Made by a program: the position numbers and the translations under genes. From IMG/VR virus record IMGVR_UViG_2718218494_000001: 64,000 nucleotides of DNA, one strand, 5' to 3'. The stretch comes from an uncultured virus (IMG/VR IMGVR_UViG_2718218494_000001). Lineage: Duplodnaviria > Heunggongvirae > Uroviricota > Caudoviricetes. The notes beneath the pieces were generated by a model. The model was not told the origin of the DNA and made no database searches. It was given only the letters and a program-made list of their open reading frames with translations. Numbering within the stretch: the stretch's first letter is position 1; each line of letters starts with the position of its first letter. Below are positions 4,078 to 48,696 of the stretch, in pieces.

Positions 4078-5173
4078 TGTGTAAGTTCACACAGATATTG
4101 CAATTGCCTCAGAACACTAAAGGAGGGATTGCCAGATGTTGATGCAGCATATCGGTGTCGGCTATTTTGGGTATTACCGAGCAACTGCTTATGCGATGAA
4201 ACACTCTCTTATGCCCGAGATTGCGAAGTTAAGAATGAAGGCTCTGAACTTCTGGGATAAGCACGGGATCCGTGCCGCAGCTGATGCTTTTGACGTATCA
4301 ACGCGAACACTCTACTGGTGGCGCCGGTTACTGCGCACCGGTGGTCCAGAAGCACTAATTCCAAGAAGCAAAGCCCCTCTGGTTCGCCGTTCAAGGCACT
4401 GGCATCCTGATGTACTCAAGGAGATCAGGCGTCTGAGAACTGAGTTACCCAATCTCGGCAAAGAGCAGATTTTTGTCAGGCTGAAACCATGGTGTGAAGC
4501 GCGGCATTTTACCTGTCCCAGCACGTCAACCATTGGAAGAATCATTGCTGGTGCTCACGATAAAATGCGGATGATCCCCGTACGCCTCAGCGCCAGGGGC
4601 AAAGCCCGGTTGATAAAAAAACGCTCAGTGAAGCCCAGAAGACCAAAACAATACCGCCCGGTAAAAACAGGCGAACTCATAGGGATGGACGCGATTGAAC
4701 TCAGGATGGGGGACCTACGCCGCTATATCATTACCATGATCGACGAGCACAGCGACTATGCGCTGGCCCTGGCGGTCCCTTCACTCAACAGCGATATTAC
4801 CAGCCATTTCTTCAGCAAGGCCACAAAGCTCTTTCCTGTCGCTATCAGACAAGTTGTCACTGACAACGGTAAGGAGTTCCTCGGTAACTTTGATAAAACG
4901 CTACAGGAAGCCTCGATTAAACACATCTGGACCTATCCGTACACACCGAAAATGAATGCGACCTGTGAGCGATTTAACCGGACACTTAGAGAACAATTTA
5001 TTGAATTCAATGAATTGTTGCTTTTTGAGGACCTGAATTTGTTTAATCAAAGAATGGCTGAATATCTGGTGCTGTATAACAGCAAAAGGCCACATAAATC
5101 ACTCGAACTGATGACGCCAGTGGACTATATTTTACGTGAGAGTAAAAATTGCAATATGTGGTGGACCCATACA
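4078..5173 (+). mobile_element. IS481-family insertion sequence, 1096 bp (ISKpn28-like)
   Basis: TGT...ACA ends; imperfect IRs sharing ATATTGCAATT; 5-bp target duplication CCTCC (4073-4077 and 5174-5178). Confidence 0.9.
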
Positions 5174-5215
5174 CCTCCTTGCAAATTGCACGGTAAGAGG
5201 CCATACTGGTGTTGA
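4136..5215 (+). CDS. tnpA: IS481-family DDE transposase; reads through the right IR
   Basis: N-terminal HTH plus rve core (MD, TDNGKEF, ERFNRTL, YNSKRPH). Confidence 0.92.
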   Translation: MLMQHIGVGYFGYYRATAYAMKHSLMPEIAKLRMKALNFWDKHGIRAAADAFDVSTRTLYWWRRLLRTGGPEALIPRSKAPLVRRSRHWHPDVLKEIRRLRTELPNLGKEQIFVRLKPWCEARHFTCPSTSTIGRIIAGAHDKMRMIPVRLSARGKARLIKKRSVKPRRPKQYRPVKTGELIGMDAIELRMGDLRRYIITMIDEHSDYALALAVPSLNSDITSHFFSKATKLFPVAIRQVVTDNGKEFLGNFDKTLQEASIKHIWTYPYTPKMNATCERFNRTLREQFIEFNELLLFEDLNLFNQRMAEYLVLYNSKRPHKSLELMTPVDYILRESKNCNMWWTHTPPCKLHGKRPYWC

Positions 5216-5272
5216 CTAGACATTCAGTGGGCCTCGTGGGTTAATGAAAATTAACTACGGGGCTTTCTGCTT
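5214..5272 (+). ncRNA. sok: Sok antisense RNA
   Basis: GACTAGACAT...GTTAATGAAAATTAAC...GGGGCTTT matches the R1 Sok layout and is antisense to the mok start; hok leader hairpin at ~5310-5333. Confidence 0.85.
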
Positions 5273-5392
5273 TCTGCCACACAACACGGTAACAAACCAC
5301 CTTCACGTCATGAGGCAAAAAGCCTCAAGCGCCACGTCGATTATACCGGGCCGGTGCTATTTCTTACCAGGTATATCCACGCTTTATGCTGC

Positions 5393-13107: not shown

Positions 13108-13338
13108 TCAGTTAAATGCGCGTTTCAGTTCCAGCGTGCGGAGTACCTGCCCGAGGGCGGTATTTTTCATCGCGGGGATGTGGACACCGCGCCCTTTGCG
13201 GTGACTTCTGGCGATATGACGCCCGAAAGCTCTGAGAGCGGGATCAATCTCCGGTGCGGTGATATCTGCGCGCAGAATGCGCGAATGACGACGGGGCTTT
13301 ACAGCGCCTGCGGAAGGTGAAAAAATAGAAACGATCAT
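13108..13338 (-). CDS. Conserved small leading-region protein
   Basis: AGGAG RBS; typical IncF position. Confidence 0.65.
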   Translation of the reverse strand: MIVSIFSPSAGAVKPRRHSRILRADITAPEIDPALRAFGRHIARSHRKGRGVHIPAMKNTALGQVLRTLELKRAFN

Positions 13339-13429
13339 AGAGTTGACTCCTTATGGTAGTTAACGAAGCCGGAAAAACCGTTCGTGCGATTTTTACGGCG
13401 TGGGAGAAGCAGGGTTTACCCTGCTTTTT

Positions 13430-16635: not shown

Positions 16636-18545
16636 GTCGCGGTAGGGATACCCGTTACCGGATACCCCCCGCACAGATCCCGGCGTGCGCGATTTACGCA
16701 CCGGGCTCCTGCCTCGGGTGTCTGGCGGTGAACCGCTCCACAGGCCATGGATGAAGAACCCGAACCCTTGGTAGCCATGCGGCTGCCAGTTTGTTTGCTT
16801 TCGTCCAGGTCGTATCATCCTTCTGGCTCCTGCGCCTGAGCGCCCGGCGCCAGAGGTTTGTTACGTGTGTCCTGAACTTCTGCATGGTGGGGAAGTTGCC
16901 CGGTACCGAGTGATAGTTCAGGTATCCCTGAACCACTCTCCTGAGCCATTTTCCCTGTTCGGGGATTGAGTAATGCCAGCGCCTTCGCAGACCGTCTTTG
17001 ATGGCTTTCAGAGTTGCCGTCATCCGATCCCGGCGGGTCTTTCGTATCAGCATGAACCTGCCGTTGCGATCTTTCCCGCTGATGTGCGTGAACCCGAGGA
17101 AGTTGAACGTTTCTGGTTTGCCTTTTCCCCTGATGGCACGGTTTTCGGCAGCGAAGCGGCCGAACTCCATCAGACGGGTTTTCTCCGGGTGAACCGTGAG
17201 TCCGAACTCCCTCAGTCTGCGCTGCATGGCTATACGGAAGCGCCGGGCATCGTATCGTTTGTCGAACCCGATGACGATGTCATCGGCGTATCTGACCATT
17301 ACCACATTGCCTGTGGCATAGCGACGTCGCCACTGATGCGCCCACAGATCGAAGACGTAGTGGAGGTATATGTTTGCCAGCAGCGGTGAGATGACCGCAC
17401 CCTGTGGGGTGCCTTCCTCCGTTGCTCGCCATTGACCCTCCTCCGACGTCCCGGCTGTGAGCCACTTACGTATGAGCCTGATTACCCTCCGGTCGCCGAT
17501 CCGATGCTCTGTGAACCTGATCAGCCATTCGTGGCTCACCCTGTCGAAGAACTGACTGATGTCGGCATCCAGTACCCAGTTTACGTTAGTGCGTACCAGC
17601 CCTGTGGCCAGTGCGTCCAGTGCATCGTGCTGGCTTCGCCCGGGTCTGAACCCGTATGAGAACCCCATAAAGTCGTTTTCATAGACTGCGTTCAGGATTT
17701 TCACCAGCGCATACTGGACGATCTTGTCCTCCAGCGAGGCGATGCCGAGCGGGCGTTGTTTTCCATCCGCTTTTGGGATGTAGTGACGCCTGCCGGGCTG
17801 CGCCCTGTAGCTGCCCTGATGTAGCCTCCGGTGCAGATCTGTTATGTTGTTCTTCATGTTTCCGGCGTAGTCCATCCACCTGATGCCATCCACTCCGGCG
17901 GCCGCTTTCCTGCTCAGGGAGAGGAATGCGGCTTCCAGTGCTTCGACTGTCAGCAGGTGGAACAATGCTGTAAACCGTTCTTTCTTCCGCTGCTTCGCAG
18001 CTTCCCGCACGCGTGACAGCCTCTGTGACATGCTTTCCCGGCTCTGTGTCCGGCGCATGTGTGGCTGTTCCGCGTTCCCCTTGGCCCCGCTCCTTCGCTC
18101 CACTGACTCCGCTCCTTTCGGGTTGTTCGCCTGCTTCGCCGCTACTATGAGCGAGTCCGACTTCTCCTCTCCGTACATCACCGGCTATGACTCCTCGTCT
18201 TCCCGGTGCGGGCCATCTCCGACACTGGCAGATGGTCAGAGGGGAGATCTCCCGGTTCCCGCGTAGAGATCGTATTGACATGCCAGGGTCTCAGACCCCG
18301 CCGGGTCCATGTGGCACTCGCAGTATCGCACCCTATGATGTTGCCTTCCGTTAACAGTACAACGTCGGCACCCGGTAATTTAATATACATTTCGTGGCTC
18401 AATGGCTGGCCTGTCAACACCCCTGTCAACGCTTCGCCCCATACCTCGCGGTATGCAACGCATGACTCGGGGACCTTGTGGATTGCTGGTCCTTCAATGG
18501 TCGGGGACTTTCACCCCTTGATCTCTAACCGGTCTCCCGGCGCAC
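16636..18545 (-). mobile_element. Group II intron, 1910 nt, apparently complete
   Basis: Minus strand starts GTGCG; ends with domain V (GAGCCCGGTGCG...CGCACGCCGGGATC) and domain VI ...CCCTACCGCGAC. Confidence 0.93.
16694..18181 (-). CDS. ltrA: Group II intron reverse transcriptase/maturase; no endonuclease domain
   Basis: AAGVDG, RPLGI, GFRPGRS, GTPQG, YADD, FLGF motifs. Confidence 0.95.
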   Translation of the reverse strand: MMYGEEKSDSLIVAAKQANNPKGAESVERRSGAKGNAEQPHMRRTQSRESMSQRLSRVREAAKQRKKERFTALFHLLTVEALEAAFLSLSRKAAAGVDGIRWMDYAGNMKNNITDLHRRLHQGSYRAQPGRRHYIPKADGKQRPLGIASLEDKIVQYALVKILNAVYENDFMGFSYGFRPGRSQHDALDALATGLVRTNVNWVLDADISQFFDRVSHEWLIRFTEHRIGDRRVIRLIRKWLTAGTSEEGQWRATEEGTPQGAVISPLLANIYLHYVFDLWAHQWRRRYATGNVVMVRYADDIVIGFDKRYDARRFRIAMQRRLREFGLTVHPEKTRLMEFGRFAAENRAIRGKGKPETFNFLGFTHISGKDRNGRFMLIRKTRRDRMTATLKAIKDGLRRRWHYSIPEQGKWLRRVVQGYLNYHSVPGNFPTMQKFRTHVTNLWRRALRRRSQKDDTTWTKANKLAAAWLPRVRVLHPWPVERFTARHPRQEPGA

Positions 18546-27047: not shown

Positions 27048-27235
27048 TGATTGAAATCAAAATAACGATGGGTTTATTATTACCAAAATGGTAAATTTAC
27101 AACCCATTTCCCTTGTGCCATAGTGATCGGGCATCGGCAAAATCCGGTGCCGGGATTGGCGTCCCGGATAACTAAACGGCGCACAACACGCGCACTGCGT
27201 GTTTTTTTGTGCACGCGCTCTGACGCACCTATCCA

Positions 27236-27313
27236 ATGGTGGGCTGGGCGGGGGTCCGAAAGGACGCCGGTATCCGTTTAGGCCGGTACGCCAACTCCGT
27301 TCAGTTCACCACC
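27236..27313 (+). ncRNA. C4/CI-like antisense RNA (P1 c4 / P4 CI type)
   Basis: GGTGGGCTGGGCGG/CCGTTCAGTTCACC stem, GTCC-GAAA-GGAC hairpin, CCGG hairpin; loops CCGTTTAG and CGCCAA complementary to flanking target pairs. Confidence 0.8.
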
Positions 27314-27361
27314 AGTAATTGGCGTTGCGGTGGTGATAACTCTACTAAGCGGGGTATCACA

Positions 27362-41502: not shown

Positions 41503-42489
41503 TTAAACCACGCGAGCTTCAGTTTCCAGAAGCGCATCGGTTTCGCGAATCGGAACGCCACGGAAACTGGTCCACCATTCGCCTTCAGTCTCTTTGACGC
41601 TAATCGCCAGAGAGGATTTCTCCAGAGATTGCAGGTCAAGAGCCTGGGCAACGGTGCGGTTCATGTAGAACACCGGGCGCCCCATGCCACGGTTAGGGAT
41701 GCGATGCAGCGCTTTCACCATGAGCTTGGCGATGTTCGCCGCCGCAGCAGGGTCGGACAAGTCGCTGATATCGATGTTCGCGATGCGCACAACGTAGCGC
41801 CAGTCGCGCAGGCACAGGCCGTTATCCCACTTATAGTGGGTGCGGTAGCCTTCATACTGGCCGTCGTTGGCATCTTTCAGAGTCTGCTGGCCTTTATCTT
41901 CCATCTGCAGACCTGCTTTCTGGCCTTTCGGGAAGATACCGTGAACGGTGTTTTCGCCCCATACAATGAGCCAGATTGAAGTGTTATCGGTGCCAGTACC
42001 GCCGGCGTCGATAATGTTTTGCGCGTTGGTAGCCGTCAGGTCGGAGTAGCGAGAAGACAGGCCCATGAACTGCTGCGGGTTAACGCTGGAGTCGCCATAA
42101 AAAAGCGTTTGAGCCATCTGCTGATTCATCGCCTCGAGGAAAGCGCGATCTTCTGACAGCCGAAATTCAGCGGTATTTCCGTTCAGATCTGCCAGAGATT
42201 TATCAATCTCCGCATAGGTTTCCAGCATGCCAATGCCATCGGTAACCTGCACAGTGGTCGATTTGCTCGGCTGTACGCCGTAGTTGAGCAGACGCCAGGT
42301 CGCCGACGGCAGGCCAGAGCGAATGGTCGTACGATGACCGGTCGGCAGGTTGCCTTCAACGATCAGCATGTCCTGCAGTATCGGGTTGGTTTGGGAAAGG
42401 AGTTCGATAATTTTATCGACTTTCCCGTTCGGGTCGATGCGCTTACCCCAGTCTGCCAGCGTCAGCGCAGTAATGCCTTTAACAGCCAT
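41503..42489 (-). CDS. Major capsid protein
   Basis: IIELL.QTN.IL.D, GLPSATWR.LN.G, F.GVPIR.TDALL.TEA. Confidence 0.93.
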   Translation of the reverse strand: MAVKGITALTLADWGKRIDPNGKVDKIIELLSQTNPILQDMLIVEGNLPTGHRTTIRSGLPSATWRLLNYGVQPSKSTTVQVTDGIGMLETYAEIDKSLADLNGNTAEFRLSEDRAFLEAMNQQMAQTLFYGDSSVNPQQFMGLSSRYSDLTATNAQNIIDAGGTGTDNTSIWLIVWGENTVHGIFPKGQKAGLQMEDKGQQTLKDANDGQYEGYRTHYKWDNGLCLRDWRYVVRIANIDISDLSDPAAAANIAKLMVKALHRIPNRGMGRPVFYMNRTVAQALDLQSLEKSSLAISVKETEGEWWTSFRGVPIRETDALLETEARVV

Positions 42490-43186: not shown

Positions 43187-43483
43187 TTACTCCTGTTCAC
43201 TGGCCTCTGCGGCCATCTTCAGATACTGTTCAGGGCAGTGCGCCATGACGCGCTGGAACAATGCCAGCGCCAGGTTGCGCTGCCCCTCGTTGAAAGCAGT
43301 CACTTGCGGATCACCGGCAAAGCAGGCAGAAAACACCTTGCCCTGCTCCAGTACCCCCCAGATCACCCGGCGGCCCTGCTCGCTACCCATGACGAAACGG
43401 ATATCTTCAATGTCACGCTGTTGAAGGAGTTCCTTCTCGCGTGCCGATTCAGCAGCCAACTGGTCATCATCAAAATCTGTCAT
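43187..43483 (-). CDS. Bbp19-like protein
   Basis: GRR..W and AFNEG.RN motifs. Confidence 0.7.
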   Translation of the reverse strand: MTDFDDDQLAAESAREKELLQQRDIEDIRFVMGSEQGRRVIWGVLEQGKVFSACFAGDPQVTAFNEGQRNLALALFQRVMAHCPEQYLKMAAEASEQE

Positions 43484-45162
43484 TGCTGGCCACCTGCAGG
43501 AGCACCTGCTGCGTTAGAAAGCGCTGTCAGTACGCTGGGATCCTCCGTCTGCGCTTCACTGAGAGTCTTGGCACCCTGAGCGGCAGCCATGCCCATAGCC
43601 ACCATTTGCTGCTGTTGCTGCTGCTGAGCGCGCTGCTCGCGAACCTGCTCAACCTGTTCCTGTGGAACGATGACTGTCGGCGAGACACCGGACATCTCAG
43701 CGAATGCATCAATGGCTTGATCCACGTTGAGTTTGTCCAGCGCTTCCGGTTTGGCCTGTGCCAGCTGGCCAATGAAGCCGACGGTGGATGACAGGCTTGA
43801 TAGCCCAATAGATTTCTGCGCCTGCGCCATCACCGAGATGTACTCAATGCGCAGCGGCATACCCTGCAGGACGTCCGGCGGGGGCGGGAGAAGGTTTTTT
43901 CTCGCCATGATGGAGAAGGTGCGATCGATAAGCGGGTTCAGGCATTCGTCGTTCAGACGCTCAAGAACAGGCCCAAGCATCAGCAACTTCTCTTCTTTCA
44001 TCTCGATCACTGCTTCAACCGGCATCGAGCGGGTATTGATGTTCTGCAACATCATGAAGAGGTCGACAAAGTAGGCGCTGTTGATGATCTGCCGAGTGTC
44101 CTGAATGTCTGCCAGCAGGTCGGCGGTATTCGGGTTAACCAGATAGGCAGGCTTGAAACCATCCTGCCCGGTGACCTGATCGATATAGGTTATATCGCCA
44201 GGCAAAAGGGAAACACGCTGGTTGCGGAGTGATGACGGACCAACCATCGGCGGGTTGGTGGCCTTGTCGATCAGCTGGCTTTTGCGCTTCTGCTCCAGTT
44301 GCAGAGCTTTAACCTGGCCGAGGGCAATCATGCCCGGGCAGGATGAGCCGTATACATCCTCGCCGTTCACTTCCCAGCGCGGCGCCATAATCGGGAATTC
44401 ATCGAAACCAGACTCACGCAGCAACTTATCGCTGTCGCCTCCAACCTCGTAATAAACCGATTTGACCGGCTTATTTTTGCTGTTGAGCTTGGCAGTATCG
44501 CGGTCGATGTTCGGATAAACGGCATGTATAACTTCGATCCAGCTTTCGTAGTTACCGGAATCCCACATGCCCTTCACTGAATCGCTGACGTTATTGAGGC
44601 CAAACTCCATAACCAGCTGGCGCACAGTCATGGAGAATTTGCGGAAACAGGTGTCAACGCTGCCGCGCGCAGAGTTAGCCATGTAGTAACTGCCGATCGG
44701 AAACATCATCGTGCGGATAACGTCGCTGTCATCTTCCAGCACAGCCATAGCGCCGGTACTGTAATTCCCCAGGCTGGCGTAAAGCAGCGGCAGCGACTGG
44801 TAGATATTGGATTTGTTGAACACTTCGTTCATGCGGCGCTGAACGACTTCAAGCCACAGTTTCACTGGGCCGTAGTCCATCATGTCAGGGTCAGGCGTTG
44901 CCAGCTTGAACCACGGGCGCGCAGGAGAAGTGATCCCCGACATCATGCCGCTCGATAGCGTGCGTGCTGCCAGGGTGGCGGTGGGGTCAACAATTTTCGT
45001 ATTGCGGCGGTCATCCCGGTTTACATCGGTGACCAGGAAGCGGGAGCCACGCGGATTGATGAAATCGCTCAGTTCGCGCCAGTGCGGATCGAACGATGAG
45101 CGATCATTAGTGAGCTGTGCCTGCTGCTTTTGCAGTTGCTCTTTCAGGGTTTCCGCTGCCAT
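43480..45162 (-). CDS. Portal (head-tail connector)
   Basis: SGITSPARPWF, EEKLLMLGPVLERL. Confidence 0.93.
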   Translation of the reverse strand: MAAETLKEQLQKQQAQLTNDRSSFDPHWRELSDFINPRGSRFLVTDVNRDDRRNTKIVDPTATLAARTLSSGMMSGITSPARPWFKLATPDPDMMDYGPVKLWLEVVQRRMNEVFNKSNIYQSLPLLYASLGNYSTGAMAVLEDDSDVIRTMMFPIGSYYMANSARGSVDTCFRKFSMTVRQLVMEFGLNNVSDSVKGMWDSGNYESWIEVIHAVYPNIDRDTAKLNSKNKPVKSVYYEVGGDSDKLLRESGFDEFPIMAPRWEVNGEDVYGSSCPGMIALGQVKALQLEQKRKSQLIDKATNPPMVGPSSLRNQRVSLLPGDITYIDQVTGQDGFKPAYLVNPNTADLLADIQDTRQIINSAYFVDLFMMLQNINTRSMPVEAVIEMKEEKLLMLGPVLERLNDECLNPLIDRTFSIMARKNLLPPPPDVLQGMPLRIEYISVMAQAQKSIGLSSLSSTVGFIGQLAQAKPEALDKLNVDQAIDAFAEMSGVSPTVIVPQEQVEQVREQRAQQQQQQQMVAMGMAAAQGAKTLSEAQTEDPSVLTALSNAAGAPAGGQQ

Positions 45163-45176
45163 CTGCCGCGCTCCAG

Positions 45177-45383
45177 TTACTGACCGAGCAGCGTTTTGCC
45201 GCTGGTATTTGCGGCGGAGGTATCACCCTGCGCCCCGGTCAGCAGCGTAGAACTACGCCCGGCGGCCGCACGGCGACGCCTGGTTTCTTCATCGCGGGAA
45301 TCGACTACAGCCTGATCCTGTTCCTGCGGAGCCGCCTGAACTTCTGGTGCTGCAGGTACTGAAGGCTTGCTGCCAATGCACAT
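45177..45383 (-). CDS. Small structural-operon protein
   Basis: GRSSTLLTG...KTLLGQ motif typical upstream of podophage portals. Confidence 0.7.
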   Translation of the reverse strand: MCIGSKPSVPAAPEVQAAPQEQDQAVVDSRDEETRRRRAAAGRSSTLLTGAQGDTSAANTSGKTLLGQ

Positions 45384-45450
45384 ATCGATACTCCATACGC
45401 GTTTAAATTATTACCAATTTAACCACATATGATTTATTTGTCGTAGTGTA

Positions 45451-45487
45451 TTGACCTTTTGACGATAAATTATTACCTTTTTGGTAA
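45451..45487 (+). promoter_or_regulatory. Rightward promoter overlapped by a repressor operator
   Basis: TTGACC-17-TACCTT with TTACC-N5-GGTAA at 45473-45487. Confidence 0.65.
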
Positions 45488-45488
45488 A

Positions 45489-46168
45489 CACAACATGAAA
45501 GCGCACCCCATTCCCTTCCATTGGTGGCTTTGTCGTTACTCAGATGGCGGAGTGCGCTTCCAGGTGTGAAAGCATCCGGCGTATGGCACATGCGTCGATA
45601 GCGGTCCGGGGGCTCCTTGGTACATGGCCCAGCGGGTAGCCGGAATGTGCAAGCCATGCCCTGCATGCACGACAGCGACTCACCATCGTGGCGGTACGGT
45701 GTGACACCTCGGAAGAGACGAGGGCACAACAGGTAAGAGCATTGACCGAGCCTAAAAGTAATTGGCAGATACCCTCTCAGGGGTTGGTCATATCGGGACT
45801 GCAGTCGGCGCAGCTGAGATAGAGCCACAATGCAGCGTTCAGTGCTCTTTCCGTTGTGGTGAATGCGCAGGCTGATGCGCTAACTTATCAGCTAGATGGT
45901 GAGGTAATGGCTCACCATGGCGACGACGGGTAGTCCATTTGCAAGCCGGAGATCAGCGCCGGCCACCACAACCCAATCACGCATCAGGACCGTGATACCC
46001 GTAGTTTCAGTGCAAGTTTGGCGGTGGCAGTTATTCCCTTTCTGACCACCGCCATTTTTACAGCAGGACGCCATTGCGATGACTTCATGCTGTAAACCCT
46101 GTGACACCCAGCCAAGGACGGCACTTTCCATCATCCATGTTTCGCCCGGTTCGTCCGGGCATTTTTTT
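45489..46168 (+). ncRNA. Putative modular structured non-coding RNA / long leader
   Basis: No credible ORF; consecutive long stems, two related pseudoknot modules, terminators at ~46020-46059 and 46144-46168. Confidence 0.6.
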
Positions 46169-46184
46169 AAGGTGAGATTAGACT

Positions 46185-46496
46185 ATGAGTGACAAAGACA
46201 TTGAATCTGAAATTCAGGCTAAAGGCTTAACCGCGCCGCGCGTTACGCGAGACGACATGATCGCAAACATTGCTCACGCTGAAATCGTTAAGCACGTTTC
46301 TGTTACCGGGCAGGTTCTTCGCTGGGCGATCATTACGACAAAGAATGGCTTCGCGGTAACCGGAAAGCCATCATGTGCAGTCTCATCTGAAAACGACGAT
46401 GAGGCGATCGGAAAACAGATTGCTCTGAAGAACGCAGAGAACGAGCTGTGGCCACTGATGGGTTACGCTTTGAAAGAAAAGCTGAGCCAACAGTGA
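46185..46496 (+). CDS. N4 Gp49/Sf6 gp66-family protein
   Basis: APRVT, NGFAVTG.SCAVS.EN.D..IG..IA..NA...LWPL.GY.LK. Confidence 0.85.
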   Translation: MSDKDIESEIQAKGLTAPRVTRDDMIANIAHAEIVKHVSVTGQVLRWAIITTKNGFAVTGKPSCAVSSENDDEAIGKQIALKNAENELWPLMGYALKEKLSQQ

Positions 46497-46537
46497 AAAG
46501 CGAATTAGACGGCTTTAACGCCGTGACATGTCACAAT

Positions 46538-46563
46538 AGCCCGCCGATGCGCGGGCTTTTTTT
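46538..46563. terminator. Terminator hairpin between convergent genes
   Basis: AGCCCGC...GCGGGCTTTTTTT. Confidence 0.75.
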
Positions 46564-48038
46564 TACGCCCACGGGTCGTACTCGCTGATCACGTTGGGCT
46601 GCTTGCCACCGGCAGCAGGGAAATCTGAACGCTTCGTCACCGGGTATGCGAATGTCAGAAGCAGCGCATCGCCCTTGCCAGGCGACCGGCCCAAACGCTC
46701 TTTGATATCCTCTTTCGGCTCCATGACGATCTTACCGTCCACCCTAACCTTGTACTCTGCCGCGGAAAGGTCGTCCGCCGTCTCCTGGTCATCCAGCGCG
46801 CCGCCGAGCTTGAGCCACGTCTTACAGGCGTTGAACATCTCTCCGCGCTTATTCAGCATCTGCGGGTCTGACGATGCGCCGCCGAACGGCACAAGCTGCC
46901 AGGTGCGGCCCCAGCCGTCACCGATGGACTTCAGCCCGGTGCCGTAGCCGAAGTCGATAAACACCGCGTCAGCCTGGTACTGGTCCTCAAAGTCAGCGAT
47001 ACGCTTAGCCATAATCAGATCGTCAGTGGTCTTGTTGCCGGTCCACAGCACTTTGCTGTGCAGCCCCTGGCGGAGATAAATCACCGCGTCATCCACGCCG
47101 GAATATGCCGGGTCGACGCCGATTATCCGCGGGGCGTGCGCCACCTGCGCAGCGGTCACAACGCGCTTCATCGCCTCGTCTGTCAGACCGGTAGGGATGA
47201 ACTGCAGCTCTGACGCATCAGGGAAGATCCCGCGCACGCGGACCTTCACGAAATCGCTGTCCTCGCCGTAGTCATCGACCCACTTTTGCAGCTGCTGCTT
47301 GTTGGTGCCTTCGACGGTGCGGCTGTCGATTTGCGCGCATTTCCAGCGGTGCTTGTATTTGCGGAAGCACTCTCGGAATCGCCCGGTGTTACGCGTCGGG
47401 TTACCGAACGCCACCCAGATAATTTCGGTGTCCTCGTCCGTCAGCGCGCCCTCGGCAACCTCCCAGACCAGATCCGCGATGTTGGATGCTTCGTCGAACA
47501 CCACAACGATGCGCTTACGCTCGTTGTGCAGGCCTGCAAACGCCTCGGTGTTGTGCTCAGACCAGGGAATAGCATCGGCGCGCCAGCGTTTGTCGTGGCC
47601 CGGATCGTTGCTGTACATCGCGGTGGCGGTGCAGGTGAACCACTCTTTCGTGATAGCCAGGTTCGACCATTTGATGATTTCCGGCCAGGTCTTCGTGCGC
47701 AGCTGGTTATCGGTGTTAGCGGTCACCACCACCTTGCAATCTTCACAGGTGGACATGGCCCAGTTAATCAGCATGGAGATAAACGCAGATTTTCCGATGC
47801 CGTGGCCGGATGCGCGGGACAGCATCAGCGGCTGGTGACGTGTCGCGGGATTCTGCAGGTGCTCGCCTATTTCGCGGAATGCGTCAGCCTGCCACTGGCG
47901 CGGACCAGTGGCGTGCGCCAGTTCTGTGCCATCCTCGCCCCACGGAAACGCATACAGCGCATAGCCCAGCGGGTCATGGGTGAAGCTGGCGATATCGTCG
48001 ATCAGCTGTTCTTCCGGGGATAAAGCGGCGTCTGTCAC
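46563..48038 (-). CDS. terL: Terminase large subunit
   Basis: ASGHGIGKS Walker A, FDEAS Walker B, GVDPA nuclease motif. Confidence 0.95.
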   Translation of the reverse strand: MTDAALSPEEQLIDDIASFTHDPLGYALYAFPWGEDGTELAHATGPRQWQADAFREIGEHLQNPATRHQPLMLSRASGHGIGKSAFISMLINWAMSTCEDCKVVVTANTDNQLRTKTWPEIIKWSNLAITKEWFTCTATAMYSNDPGHDKRWRADAIPWSEHNTEAFAGLHNERKRIVVVFDEASNIADLVWEVAEGALTDEDTEIIWVAFGNPTRNTGRFRECFRKYKHRWKCAQIDSRTVEGTNKQQLQKWVDDYGEDSDFVKVRVRGIFPDASELQFIPTGLTDEAMKRVVTAAQVAHAPRIIGVDPAYSGVDDAVIYLRQGLHSKVLWTGNKTTDDLIMAKRIADFEDQYQADAVFIDFGYGTGLKSIGDGWGRTWQLVPFGGASSDPQMLNKRGEMFNACKTWLKLGGALDDQETADDLSAAEYKVRVDGKIVMEPKEDIKERLGRSPGKGDALLLTFAYPVTKRSDFPAAGGKQPNVISEYDPWA

Positions 48039-48619
48039 TGGTCACCACCCTGGCGCTCTTTCAGGCGGCGCCGGGCGGCGGCCATGCGGTCAGCAATGGT
48101 GACATTCACGTTAACTTCCATGCGCTCTTTGAATGCCATCACATCAACGTGCTTACCAATCAGCTCGAGGTTCTTCACCTTGTCTGGCCATTTTATTTTT
48201 TTGAGGATAGTCTCGATCGTGGTCTCATCCATGTTCATGATGGTTGAGGACAGATCGAAACCGCTGAGCGTGGTGCGCCAGATTTTCGGCCACTCGCGGA
48301 TAGGCTTCAGGCCGCCGTCATCATTCAGGATATCCAGCACGTCCATCTGGTCTATTTCCACCAGGCGCAGCAGCACGTAATCGGCGCTGACGCGCAGGCG
48401 CTTGTTGCGCTCCTCCATCAGCTCAGCGATTCGTTTTTGGATACGCTCATCACGCATCATAGTGCTGGCTTTGACGTGGGCAGACTTTGGGGAGAACCCG
48501 GCATTGATGGCCGCCTGCGTCTGATTTTCAGGGCATTTCACATACTCCTGGGCGTAGGCTTCCTGCATCACCGTCAACGGTTTGTATTGAGTTGATTTGC
48601 GCTTCGGATCCTTTGGCAT
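48035..48619 (-). CDS. terS: Terminase small subunit
   Basis: N.TQAAI.AG.S..SA; DKVKNLELIGKH. Confidence 0.9.
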   Translation of the reverse strand: MPKDPKRKSTQYKPLTVMQEAYAQEYVKCPENQTQAAINAGFSPKSAHVKASTMMRDERIQKRIAELMEERNKRLRVSADYVLLRLVEIDQMDVLDILNDDGGLKPIREWPKIWRTTLSGFDLSSTIMNMDETTIETILKKIKWPDKVKNLELIGKHVDVMAFKERMEVNVNVTIADRMAAARRRLKERQGGDQ

Positions 48620-48696
48620 GGTAAACACCCCGAAAATAATTACCTTTTAGGTAATAGTAACACGCAAAACAAAGCCGCCATAGTCGGCGGCCGCGG

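What the first reader, a model, noticed from the sequence alone, without database searches (positions are those of the whole stretch)
45489..46168. Modular structured non-coding RNA array with two covarying pseudoknot modules
Seen: ~680 nt with no credible ORF between terL and the head operon, on the opposite strand, behind a promoter whose -10 lies under a repressor operator. It is built from three paired module types. (a) Two long stems, both opening CACAACA (45489-45568, 45725-45858), each closing an unrelated insert. (b) Two modules of the form GCGYA-loop-TGCGY...insert...GCCGGA-tail; the loop/tail complementarity changes together, GCACAT (45586) with ATGTGC (45645) and GCTGAT (45871) with ATCAGC (45952). 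The second module is closed by a perfect 9-bp helix GTTGTGGTG/CACCACAAC. (c) Two stem + TGTGACAC + hairpin units (~45667-45723, ~46061-46123). Two terminators follow. Inference: a processed array of scaffold-plus-cargo RNAs (decoy, antisense or anti-defence RNAs, possibly released by RNase III), or a cis antitermination leader. CACAAC also resembles the GcvB-target motif used by phage sponge RNAs (speculative). I cannot assign a family.
Basis: partly seen in the sequence, partly recalled or inferred. Interest (0 to 1): 0.85.

Follow-up and report, generated by a model that had tools for sequence, protein, structure and literature searches.

The report
Modular phage stable-RNA array with tRNA-shaped scaffold
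This non-coding stretch of a Klebsiella prophage is a transcribed string of structured RNA modules that many unrelated enterobacterial phages share, one of them a tRNA-shaped scaffold that here carries a copy-like mimic of a ribosomal RNA hairpin, and none of the modules matched any curated RNA family.

Summary
Window 45470-46170 (+) is an ORF-free, transcribed array in an epsilon15-like (Uetakevirus-type) prophage on a Klebsiella plasmid.

- **A stems** (45489-45568, 45725-45858): about 20 bp, conserved sequence, variable apex.
Covariation supports it strongly. It matches 1868 of 5426 complete E. coli genomes and is unannotated there.
- **B2** (45853-45972): a cloverleaf-shaped scaffold with a closing stem, D-like arm and T-like arm. 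Its cargo is hypervariable (26-145 nt).
- **Slot**: B2 sits exactly where sister phages carry tRNA-Arg(UCU).
- **Cargo**: in this window it mimics 16S rRNA nt ~241-280, with compensatory stem changes.
- **3' part**: a weakly DicF-like terminator hairpin and a conserved unit of about 110 nt.

No Rfam 15 family matches B1 or B2. In three of four RNA-seq assemblies laid, contig depth over the array is about 2-30 times that of the flanking genes.

Best reading: a tRNA-operon-like stable-RNA array whose products act in trans. Processing and function are inferred, not shown.

The parts
45473..45487 (.). Operator-like palindrome TTACC-N5-GGTAA, just upstream of the first module. Putative promoter region; a -35-like TTGACC lies at 45451-45456.
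   Evidence: Sequence. The homologous palindrome in epsilon15 is annotated as a repressor site with an overlapping IHF site. The promoter scan found no consensus match. One RNA contig starts at 45467.
45489..45568 (+). A1: long stem. 5' strand 45489-45506, 3' strand 45552-45568, variable apex. Candidate RNase III-type processing stem.
   Evidence: MFE fold. By offset it corresponds to the stem that the epsilon15 record annotates as an RNase III site. That annotation is a prediction, not an experiment that I saw.
45575..45725 (+). P1 hairpin 45577-82/45592-97. Loop GCACAU 45586-91 complementary to AUGUGC 45645-50. P2 base 45604-09/45632-37 closing a variable hairpin. Variable P3. H-type pseudoknot S1 45675-78/45686-89 and S2 45681-84/45698-701. 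P6 hairpin 45707-11/45719-23.
   Evidence: Model R2 hit of 144.7 bits, E 4.8e-46, the only hit in the window. In 24 sequences below 93% identity, 97.2% of cells pair, 12 pairs change on both sides, and 0 of 500 shuffles reach this. 99 distinct copies came from IMG/VR.
45725..45858 (+). A2: long stem (5' strand 45725-45745, 3' strand 45839-45858) with a roughly 90-nt apex. Its last bases overlap the 5' strand of the B2 closing stem.
   Evidence: MFE fold. 10 distinct A-stem variants have compensatory changes and apex distances of 26-188 nt.
45853..45972 (+). B2: tRNA-shaped scaffold. Closing stem 45853-61/45964-72; linker AAU; D-like arm 45865-69/45876-80 with loop GGCUGA; cargo 45881-45944; T-like arm 45945-49/45959-63 with loop AGAUCAGCG. 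Loop-loop complementarity GCUGA 45871-75 with UCAGC 45953-57.
   Evidence: Model R1 hit of 89.2 bits, E 6.3e-24. In 43 homologues, 97.8% of cells pair, 13 pairs change on both sides, and 0 of 500 shuffles reach this. It occupies the slot of tRNA-Arg(UCU) in L003, L002 and L008. ARAGORN does not call it, and the Rfam tRNA model gives no hit at E<=10.
45884..45930 (+). Cargo hairpin of B2: a mimic of a 16S rRNA helix (nt ~241-280 of the nearest held genome's 16S).
   Evidence: Rfam SSU model, 33.4 bits, E 1.8e-7. 85% identity over 40 nt to the 16S of G001. The loop and flanks are identical and the stem changes are compensatory.
45975..45997 (+). Conserved trailer hairpin (AUCACG.../...CGUGAU) directly after the tRNA/B2 slot.
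   Evidence: Conserved in most of the 8 aligned relatives (columns 1-24). It flanks the tRNA in L003.
46005..46059 (+). T1: weakly DicF-like stretch. Hairpin 46020-46053 followed by a U run (internal terminator-like site).
   Evidence: Rfam DicF scores 19.4 bits against a cut-off of 48, E 0.18. The hairpin is conserved, with some compensatory changes.
46060..46168 (+). 3' unit: conserved hairpin 46061-46094, small hairpin around 46112-46123, and the terminal intrinsic terminator 46144-46160 plus U run.
   Evidence: Alignment of 9 Uetakevirus-type loci, terminator scan, and an RNA contig ending at 46169.
46185..46496 (+). Gp49-family gene (PF13876) downstream on the same strand. Read-through transcripts reach it.
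   Evidence: Pfam E 5.2e-15. RNA contigs 45467-46440 and 45593-47288 span the terminators.

Best explanation
The region is a polycistronic operon of stable structured RNAs, built like a tRNA operon. It sits as a promoter-to-terminator cassette in the opposite orientation between the terminase and portal genes of an epsilon15-like prophage.

Shown:
- It is ORF-free.
- Its RNA-assembly depth is well above that of the neighbouring structural genes in three of four runs.
- It is made of modules that recur, shuffled, in many unrelated enterobacterial phages. These include P1/P7, Stx-converting and other lambdoid phages, HK620, Uetakevirus, and Klebsiella and E. coli myophages.
- Two modules (B1, B2) and the A stems have covariation-supported secondary structures.
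- B2 is interchangeable with a genuine tRNA gene.

Inferred:
- The primary transcript starts near 45467-45489 and ends at T1 or T2, with read-through.
- The roughly 20-bp A stems are cut by RNase III.
- B2 is matured like the tRNA it replaces (RNase P at the 5' side of the closing stem, 3' trimming).
- The tRNA-like chassis (7-9-bp closing stem stacked on a T-like arm, D-like and T-like loops joined by 5-6 Watson-Crick pairs) gives a nuclease-resistant frame that presents a variable cargo.
- In this phage the cargo copies the shape and loops of a 16S rRNA 5'-domain hairpin. It would then act in trans as a decoy for whatever binds that hairpin: a ribosomal protein, an assembly factor or a nuclease.
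- B1 is a separate stable RNA of unknown partner.
For: **Transcription**
- X10: contigs 45589-46053 (depth 654) and 46055-46169 (434) against flanks of 13-76.
- X5: contig 45467-46440 (34) against 0-22.
- X8: contig 45593-47288 (177), which also spans the Gp49 gene and part of the terL-like ORF, against neighbouring contigs of 7-8.

**Strand**
- The tRNA in relatives and the terminators lie on +.
- Many G-U pairs would be A-C on the other strand.

**Non-coding**
-.

**Modularity**
- The whole region matches 239 phage records, but only 1 covers 80% or more of it.
- B2 alone matches 190 records and B1 alone 165.
- A 98%-identical sister phage swaps A2-apex+B2 for A-apex+tRNA-Arg, with junctions at the module ends.
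- An unrelated myophage carries B1, an A stem and a 95.8%-identical B2 between baseplate and tail-fibre genes, behind what reads as its own promoter and before its own terminator-like hairpin.
- P1 has a C1-operator promoter, a dicF-like region, A stems, three tRNAs, B2 and B1 in the ban leader.

**Structure**
- B2. The T stem covaries in genome hits: GTAGG/CCTAC, GCAGG/CCTGC, GTCGG/CCGAC.
- B1. A stems.

**tRNA likeness of B2**
- Cloverleaf order, with no linker between the T-like arm and the closing stem's 3' strand; the closing stem is most often 7-9 bp.
- CCA follows directly or after one base in 16 of 70 distinct units, against about 3% expected.
- A tRNA lies within 700 nt, always on the same strand, in 9 of 60 loci.

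**rRNA mimic**
-.
Against: - No processing site, 5' or 3' end, or discrete product was seen. The RNA data are assembly contigs, which carry no strand or end information. X10 seems to hold a variant copy, so its contig breaks may be sequence variants. The fourth run (X1) is flat at 39.9 in a single contig and says nothing.
- High depth could reflect RNA stability rather than promoter strength.
- B2 is not recognised as a tRNA by ARAGORN or RF00005. Most units lack CCA (54 of 70).
- The loop-loop pairing never shows compensatory change within either family, so the loops could be conserved as protein-binding sequence instead.
- The A2 3' strand and the B2 closing stem compete for 4-6 bases.
- Only 1 of 70 distinct cargos clearly resembles rRNA, so 'decoy of host RNA' is not a general rule.
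- An operator over the promoter would predict silence in a lysogen, which sits uneasily with the high RNA depth.
Confidence: 0.6

Rival explanations
1. It is a cis-acting leader. B1 (perhaps with the A stems) modifies RNA polymerase or blocks Rho, so that transcription runs through the internal terminators into the Gp49-family gene and beyond. This would be a processive antitermination RNA of the HK022 put type, or an rrn-like leader.
For: - B1 is the first or second module after the putative promoter in the window, in SPN9TCW-type phages and in the CWW26 myophage.
- In P1 it lies directly upstream of ban.
- RNA contigs cross both terminator-like hairpins (45467-46440 and 45593-47288).
- The pseudoknot loop sequences are highly conserved, as expected for a protein or RNAP contact.
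- By recall, the 3' strand of the A stems resembles the core of the rrn boxA element. This was not tested.
Against: - The same modules occur upstream of unrelated genes or of none. In the cases read (window, CWW26 myophage) they lie between a putative promoter and a terminator-like hairpin.
- In P1, B1 lies about 2.3 kb from the promoter.
- B2 is exchangeable with a tRNA gene, which a leader element would not be.
- The boxA-like bases sit in the 3' strand of a helix, where they would be paired.
- Contigs across a terminator do not prove a single transcript.
Confidence: 0.15
2. It is an array of base-pairing regulatory sRNAs or anti-sRNA sponges. On this reading the T1 and T2 units bind Hfq, the T1 unit acts like DicF, and the CACAACA motifs sponge GcvB. 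These would be released from a precursor as in the dicBF operon.
For: - Weak DicF-like match at 46005-46054 (19.4 bits, E 0.18).
- P1's equivalent leader carries an annotated 'dicF-like region'.
- The 3' unit has the hairpin / single strand / terminator layout that I recall as typical of Hfq-binding sRNAs.
- DicF is made from a polycistronic precursor by RNase E and RNase III (passages of PMC5069750).
- Two CACAACA copies fall in 680 nt.
Against: - The DicF and AgvB scores are far below the Rfam cut-offs.
- CACAACA is in predicted helices and not enriched window-wide.
- B1 and B2 are compact, highly paired folds with little single strand.
- No target was predicted or tested.
Confidence: 0.12
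3. These are decayed remnants of a phage tRNA cluster, or DNA-level recombination linkers, with no RNA function of their own.
For: - tRNA genes occupy the same slots in relatives.
- T-arm-like hairpins occur in some cargos and A-stem apices.
- Module boundaries coincide with mosaic junctions.
- epsilon15 has a deletion that fuses part of B1 to T1.
Against: - Compensatory changes maintain helices in B1, B2 and the A stems.
- The scaffold sequences are nearly invariant across very different phages and GC contents.
- RNA depth is high.
- B1 is kept in 1868 of 5426 E. coli genomes.
Confidence: 0.06

Closest known systems
Phage tRNA gene clusters with co-encoded stable RNAs of unknown function (T4 species 1 and 2 RNAs; recalled, not tested here)
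   Same: Non-coding RNAs sit in line with tRNA genes on one transcript and are interchangeable in position with tRNAs. They are presumably matured by the tRNA-processing enzymes.
   Different: Here the non-tRNA members form sequence families shared across many temperate enterobacterial phages. They have a fixed scaffold and a hypervariable insert. No sequence comparison with the T4 RNAs was possible.
tRNA (Rfam RF00005) and engineered 'tRNA scaffolds' for RNA expression (the latter recalled)
   Same: B2 has the cloverleaf order of helices: a closing stem of mostly 7-9 bp abutting a 5-bp T-like stem, a D-like arm, an elbow-like loop-loop contact, and sometimes N-CCA. The insert lies where the anticodon arm would be, as in laboratory tRNA scaffolds.
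   Different: There is no anticodon arm. The T-like loop has 9 nt, and I see no canonical T-loop sequence in it (my reading). The D/T contact is 5-6 Watson-Crick pairs. ARAGORN does not detect it, and RF00005 gives no hit at E<=10.
dicBF operon / DicF (RF00039) and the P1 ban-operon leader
   Same: A repressor-controlled prophage promoter drives a long transcript that yields small RNAs by RNase III/E processing. The P1 leader holds the same A, B1 and B2 modules plus tRNAs and a 'dicF-like region'.
   Different: The window's DicF-like stretch scores 19.4 bits against a cut-off of 48. It shows no obvious similarity by eye to P1's dicF-like region.
rRNA operon leader-trailer helices and ribosomal-protein operator mimics of rRNA (recalled concepts)
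   Same: Long flanking stems enclose a stable-RNA cargo. A hairpin copies an rRNA protein-binding site with compensatory stem changes, as autoregulatory mRNA operators do.
   Different: The mimic sits on a tRNA-like chassis in a phage, not in an mRNA leader. No binding partner is known.
Bacterial Y-RNA-like YrlA and other tRNA mimics (recalled)
   Same: Modular non-coding RNA with a tRNA-like domain, also found in phages.
   Different: No Ro-binding helix, no rsr neighbour, different loop sequences. No Rfam family matched at E<=10.

Membership tests
tRNA (RF00005 / ARAGORN) | Recognised by tRNA covariance model or ARAGORN; anticodon arm with 7-nt loop; canonical T loop | tested here: not met
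   ARAGORN finds 0 genes in the window. There is no RF00005 hit at E<=10 in 45300-46300. The real tRNA-Arg in L002, L003 and L008 scores 68-73 bits.
tRNA (RF00005 / ARAGORN) | Cloverleaf order of helices, with the acceptor 3' strand directly after the T stem | tested here: met
   Parsing of 85 distinct units and pair counts on 43 sequences.
DicF (RF00039) | Score at or above the Rfam gathering cut-off (48 bits) | tested here: not met
   19.4 bits, E 0.18 at 46005-46054.
AgvB-type anti-sRNA (RF02702) | Rfam cut-off of 56 bits; accessible CACAACA-type GcvB target mimic | tested here: not met
   15.4 bits, on the terminator only. Both CACAACA copies lie in predicted helices. The motif is not enriched in the window.
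Any Rfam 15 family | Match at gathering score | tested here: not met
   No family at gathering score in 45400-46200. None for B1/B2 loci of other phages.
RNase III processing stem | About two turns of mostly paired dsRNA flanking the cargo | tested here: met
   A1 and A2 fold in the MFE structure. There are 10 variants of about 20 bp at -25 to -32 kcal/mol.
RNase III processing stem | Cleavage by RNase III | not testable with these tools
   The only evidence is a feature annotated in the epsilon15 GenBank record.
HK022 put-type antitermination RNA | Paired stem-loops just downstream of the promoter, acting in cis on RNA polymerase | not tested
   No model or sequence of put was available. Position relative to the promoter varies.
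SSU rRNA (RF00177 clan) | Full-length rRNA gene | tested here: not met
   Only a 47-nt local match, so it is a mimic or fragment. The true 16S of G001 scores 1576 bits.

The most novel reading that the evidence does not exclude
B2 defines a natural 'tRNA-scaffold display' system. It is a widespread, uncurated family of phage RNAs in which an almost invariant tRNA-shaped chassis, matured by the host tRNA machinery, carries interchangeable cargo hairpins. Phages would swap these like cassettes. In this phage the cargo is a structural copy of a 16S rRNA 5'-domain helix, which would titrate a ribosomal or rRNA-directed host factor. B1 would be a second new pseudoknotted RNA class, present in about a third of complete E. 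coli genomes.
Probability: 0.3. Interest if true: 0.9.

Novelty: new variant of a known kind. Interest (0 to 1): 0.78.

Why it matters
- **Unannotated families.** Two abundant, well-structured RNA families sit unannotated in well-studied phages (P1, HK620, epsilon15, phiV10, Stx2 phages). B1 matches about a third of complete E. coli genomes.
- **A tractable question.** The families give a concrete handle on why phages keep non-coding islands beside their tRNA genes.
- **Possible new mechanism.** If B2 really is a natural tRNA chassis for presenting RNA cargo, it would be a new way for phages to deliver RNA mimics, including an rRNA mimic, into the host. It would also be a ready-made stable scaffold for RNA engineering.
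- **Annotation clean-up.** Some 'hypothetical proteins' called in these regions look like artefacts. Examples are a PHROG family antisense to the array, and possibly plp/upl of P1.

Tried and rejected
- **Own genome and earlier findings:** neither was available.
- **Rfam:** searched at permissive E-values on the window region and on 8 + 1 other loci. Nothing matched B1 or B2.
- **b1 and b2 as one family:** model R1 (b2) does not hit b1, and R2 (b1+c1) does not hit b2 or c2.
- **More kissing-loop variants:** I looked in all fetched loci and in genome hits. Only the two known pairs appeared, plus wobble-compatible single changes.
- **Cargos as host rRNA mimics in general:** of 70 distinct cargos, only the window-type cargo matched (2 of the 70), apart from one 13-nt exact match that may be chance.
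- **Coding potential:** rejected.
- **B2 outside Enterobacteriaceae genomes:** 1 weak hit in 151 family representatives of the class, although IMG/VR holds GC-rich examples.
- **B1 in genus representatives:** 1 weak partial hit in 151. The first-look filter scores few candidates, so this is not evidence of absence.
- **Literature:**
  - Module sequence strings gave 0 papers.
  - Searches on dicF-like/phage, tRNA-like prophage RNAs, epsilon15 with RNase III, and phage/tRNA/boxA arrays gave nothing that describes these modules in the listings or passages I read.
  - The P1 genome paper and the 1994 dicF paper are not held.
  - For the 2023 catalogue of 10,006 phage csRNAs, I read passages and searched the supplementary text. 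Three supplementary files could not be searched, so the modules may be listed there.
  - The Pas-sRNA preprint was read (abstract, sections 15 and 17). I found no link to these modules.
  - The P22 OMV paper was read (passages), with the same result.
- **RNA-seq contig ends at 45589 and 45593 in two studies:** at most a weak hint of a 5' end inside the B1 P1 loop. Not used as evidence.
Full report
**Context**

The window matches five Klebsiella pneumoniae plasmids at 100% over 45400-46200.

The local gene order, read along the + strand, is:
- major capsid (41503-42489, -)
- portal (43480-45162, -)
- a 68-aa gp3-like ORF (45177-45383, -)
- the non-coding region
- a Gp49-family gene (46185-46496, +)
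- a 491-aa ORF placed like the epsilon15 large terminase (46563-48038, -)
- terS (48035-48628, -)

The same layout is seen in epsilon15, phiV10-type, SPN1S-type and other Uetakevirus genomes. So the region, with the Gp49-family gene, is a plus-strand island inside a minus-strand packaging and head block.

**Is it non-coding and transcribed?**

- Two minus-strand ORFs overlap the region. The 141-aa ORF has no Pfam or PHROG match.
- The 80-aa ORF hits one PHROG of unknown function (E 2.3e-7) over the most conserved DNA.
- Read in the same anchored frame, 5 of 9 related loci carry stops and the residues change by frame shifts. The PHROG most likely collects spurious ORF calls.
- Four RNA-seq assemblies from four studies were laid on 43400-48100.

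| Run | Contigs over the array (depth) | Flanks |
|---|---|---|
| X10 | 45589-46053 (654); 46055-46169 (434) | 13-76 |
| X5 | 45467-46440 (34) | 0-22 |
| X8 | 45593-47288 (177); this contig also spans the Gp49 gene and part of the terL-like ORF | neighbouring contigs 7-8 |
| X1 | one flat 45.8-kb contig (39.9) | uninformative |

- Contigs give no strand and no true ends, and X10 shows variant letters. So I use only the depth contrast and the fact that contigs bridge both terminator-like hairpins.
- The + strand is indicated by three things: the tRNA orientation in relatives, the terminator at 46144-46168, and the many G-U pairs in the supported helices.

**Modularity**

- The whole region finds 239 phage records, but only one covers 80% or more of it. 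Local BLAST shows blocks that come and go.
- The clearest case is Klebsiella phage ST512-KPC3phi13.3 (L003). Window 45391-45744 and 45975-46169 are 98% and 96% identical to it.
- Between those blocks, the window's 230 nt (A2 apex, A2 3' strand, B2) are replaced by 137 nt ending in a tRNA-Arg(UCU). phiV10-type and SPN9TCW-type phages also have the tRNA there.
- An unrelated myophage (CWW26/ZCEC13 type) carries B1, an A stem and a B2 that is 95.8% identical, cargo included. They lie between baseplate and tail-fibre genes, behind what reads as its own promoter and before its own terminator-like hairpin.
- HK620 has an A stem and B2 with another cargo in its late leader, between pR'/qut and tQ.
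- A Stx2 phage has B1, an A stem and B2 just after the cI terminator.
- P1 has a C1-controlled promoter, a 'dicF-like region', A stems, tRNA-Asn, tRNA-Thr, a B2 (58 bits), tRNA-Ile and B1 in the ban leader.

**B1 (45575-45725)**

- I tested 24 representatives below 93% identity.
  - 97.2% of cells pair.
  - 12 of 31 pairs change on both sides.
  - The covariation score is 0.264 against 0.106 for shuffles (0 of 500 reach it). Slid controls pair 27-47%.
- Support is strongest for pseudoknot stem S1 (4 of 4 pairs covary), P6 (3 of 5) and the P2 base (3 of 6). S2, which pairs the S1 loop with a downstream GGUG, has one compensatory C-G to A-U pair.
- The loop GCACAU and the downstream AUGUGC are invariant, partly because the search pattern fixed the latter.
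- B1 matches 1868 of 5426 complete E. coli genomes, 569 of them over 80% or more of the query. No annotated feature lay under the match in any of the 25 rows listed.

**B2 (45853-45972)**

- A second pattern scan also hit its limit, at 119 stretches.
- I parsed 85 distinct units. Each has this order:
  - closing stem (most often 7-9 bp, up to 23)
  - linker, usually AAU
  - 5-bp stem with loop GGCUGA
  - cargo of 26-145 nt (leaving out two mis-parsed units)
  - 5-bp stem GCCGG/CCGGC with loop AGAUCAGCR
  - then, with no linker, the 3' strand of the closing stem
- In 43 sequences, 97.8% of cells pair. All 9 closing pairs and 4 of 5 D-like pairs change on both sides, and 0 of 500 shuffles reach this.
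- The T-like stem is fixed in that set because the pattern forced it. It covaries in hits found by the model in genomes.
- The loop-loop pairs GCUGA/UCAGC never covary. Single changes are wobble-compatible in some cases and break a pair in one.
- Model R1 finds B2 in 14 of 151 genus representatives of the family, one genome with 7 copies. It finds it in 1 of 151 family representatives of the class.
- CCA follows the closing stem directly or after one base in 16 of 70 distinct units.
- tRNA genes lie within 700 nt in 9 of 60 loci, always on the same strand.
- ARAGORN, RF00005 and every other Rfam family miss it.

**The cargo**

- Window 45884-45930 matches the SSU rRNA clan (33.4 bits, E 1.8e-7).
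- It also matches the 16S gene of the nearest held genome at 85% over 40 nt. That corresponds to nt ~241-280 of that 16S. By recall this is helix 11 of the 5' domain.
- The apical loop and flanking bases are identical, and the stem differences are compensatory. This argues for selection on the fold rather than for a stray fragment.
- Of 70 distinct cargos, only this type matches the rrn operon (2 of the 70, the window's version and the myophage's), apart from one 13-nt match.

**A stems and the 3' part**

- Ten distinct A-stem variants form roughly 20-bp helices with a bulge and a mismatch. Both strands change together.
- Nine of the ten 3' strands end in GTTGTGG or GATTGTGG. Where I read on (window, L003), that end runs into the next tRNA or B2.
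- By offset, the epsilon15 record's 'RNaseIII' feature corresponds to A1. epsilon15 itself has a deletion that joins the start of B1 to T1.
- The 3' 200 nt are conserved across 9 loci. They comprise a trailer hairpin, the T1 hairpin, a strongly conserved hairpin at 46061-46094 and the final terminator.

**Interpretation**

- The data fit a tRNA-operon-like stable-RNA array whose members are exchanged as cassettes. B2 is a tRNA-shaped chassis for variable cargo, and B1 is an independent pseudoknotted RNA.
- Processing by RNase III and RNase P, and a decoy role for the rRNA mimic, are inferences.
- A cis antitermination role for B1 and a base-pairing sRNA role for the T1 and T2 units remain possible.
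- I found no description of these modules in the papers I could search, with the gaps stated under Tried and rejected.

Noticed in passing
L010 (phage P1 AF234173) 2000-2099 +, and weaker 2261-2382 +: The B2 model hits the plus strand of the P1 ban leader, exactly across the junction of the annotated minus-strand genes plp and upl (58.3 and 25.1 bits). Those two small ORFs may be mis-calls over an ncRNA, or they may overlap it.
   Followed up: partly
L001 (epsilon15) 2790-2860: epsilon15 keeps the B1 P1 hairpin and the start of P2, but a deletion joins them to the 3' half of the T1 hairpin. It therefore lacks most of B1, A2 and the tRNA/B2 slot.
   Followed up: partly
window 45892-46134 (-): phrog_4647 (unknown function) matches an 80-aa ORF antisense to the most conserved ncRNA stretch. 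The frame is broken in 5 of 9 relatives, so this PHROG is probably built from spurious ORF calls.
   Followed up: yes
L139, L145, L222 cargos; L011 2205-2285: Some B2 cargos, and the A-stem apex of the Stx2 phage, contain hairpins with canonical T-loop-like sequence (GTTCGAGTC, GGTTCAATTCC). This hints at descent from, or recombination with, real tRNA genes.
   Followed up: no
G125 (genome search handle): One Enterobacteriaceae genome carries 7 separate B2 copies (E 2.6e-21 to 1.6e-10), presumably in several prophages.
   Followed up: no
window 18286-18511 (-), 5168-5334 (-), 13333-13429 (+), 27131-27316 (+): Rfam gathering-score hits elsewhere in the window: group II intron domains D1-D4, sok antitoxin RNA, AS-pc01 antisense RNA, and isrK followed by C4 antisense RNA (a P1/P7-type immunity pair).
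   Followed up: no
window 46169 / 46559: One RNA contig of run X10 joins 46169 to 46559, skipping 389 nt between the two T-run terminators that flank the Gp49-family gene. This is probably an assembly join through similar terminator tails, or a variant prophage that lacks the gene.
   Followed up: no
window 46563-48038 (-): The 491-aa ORF placed like the epsilon15 large terminase has no Pfam hit at E<=0.001.
   Followed up: no
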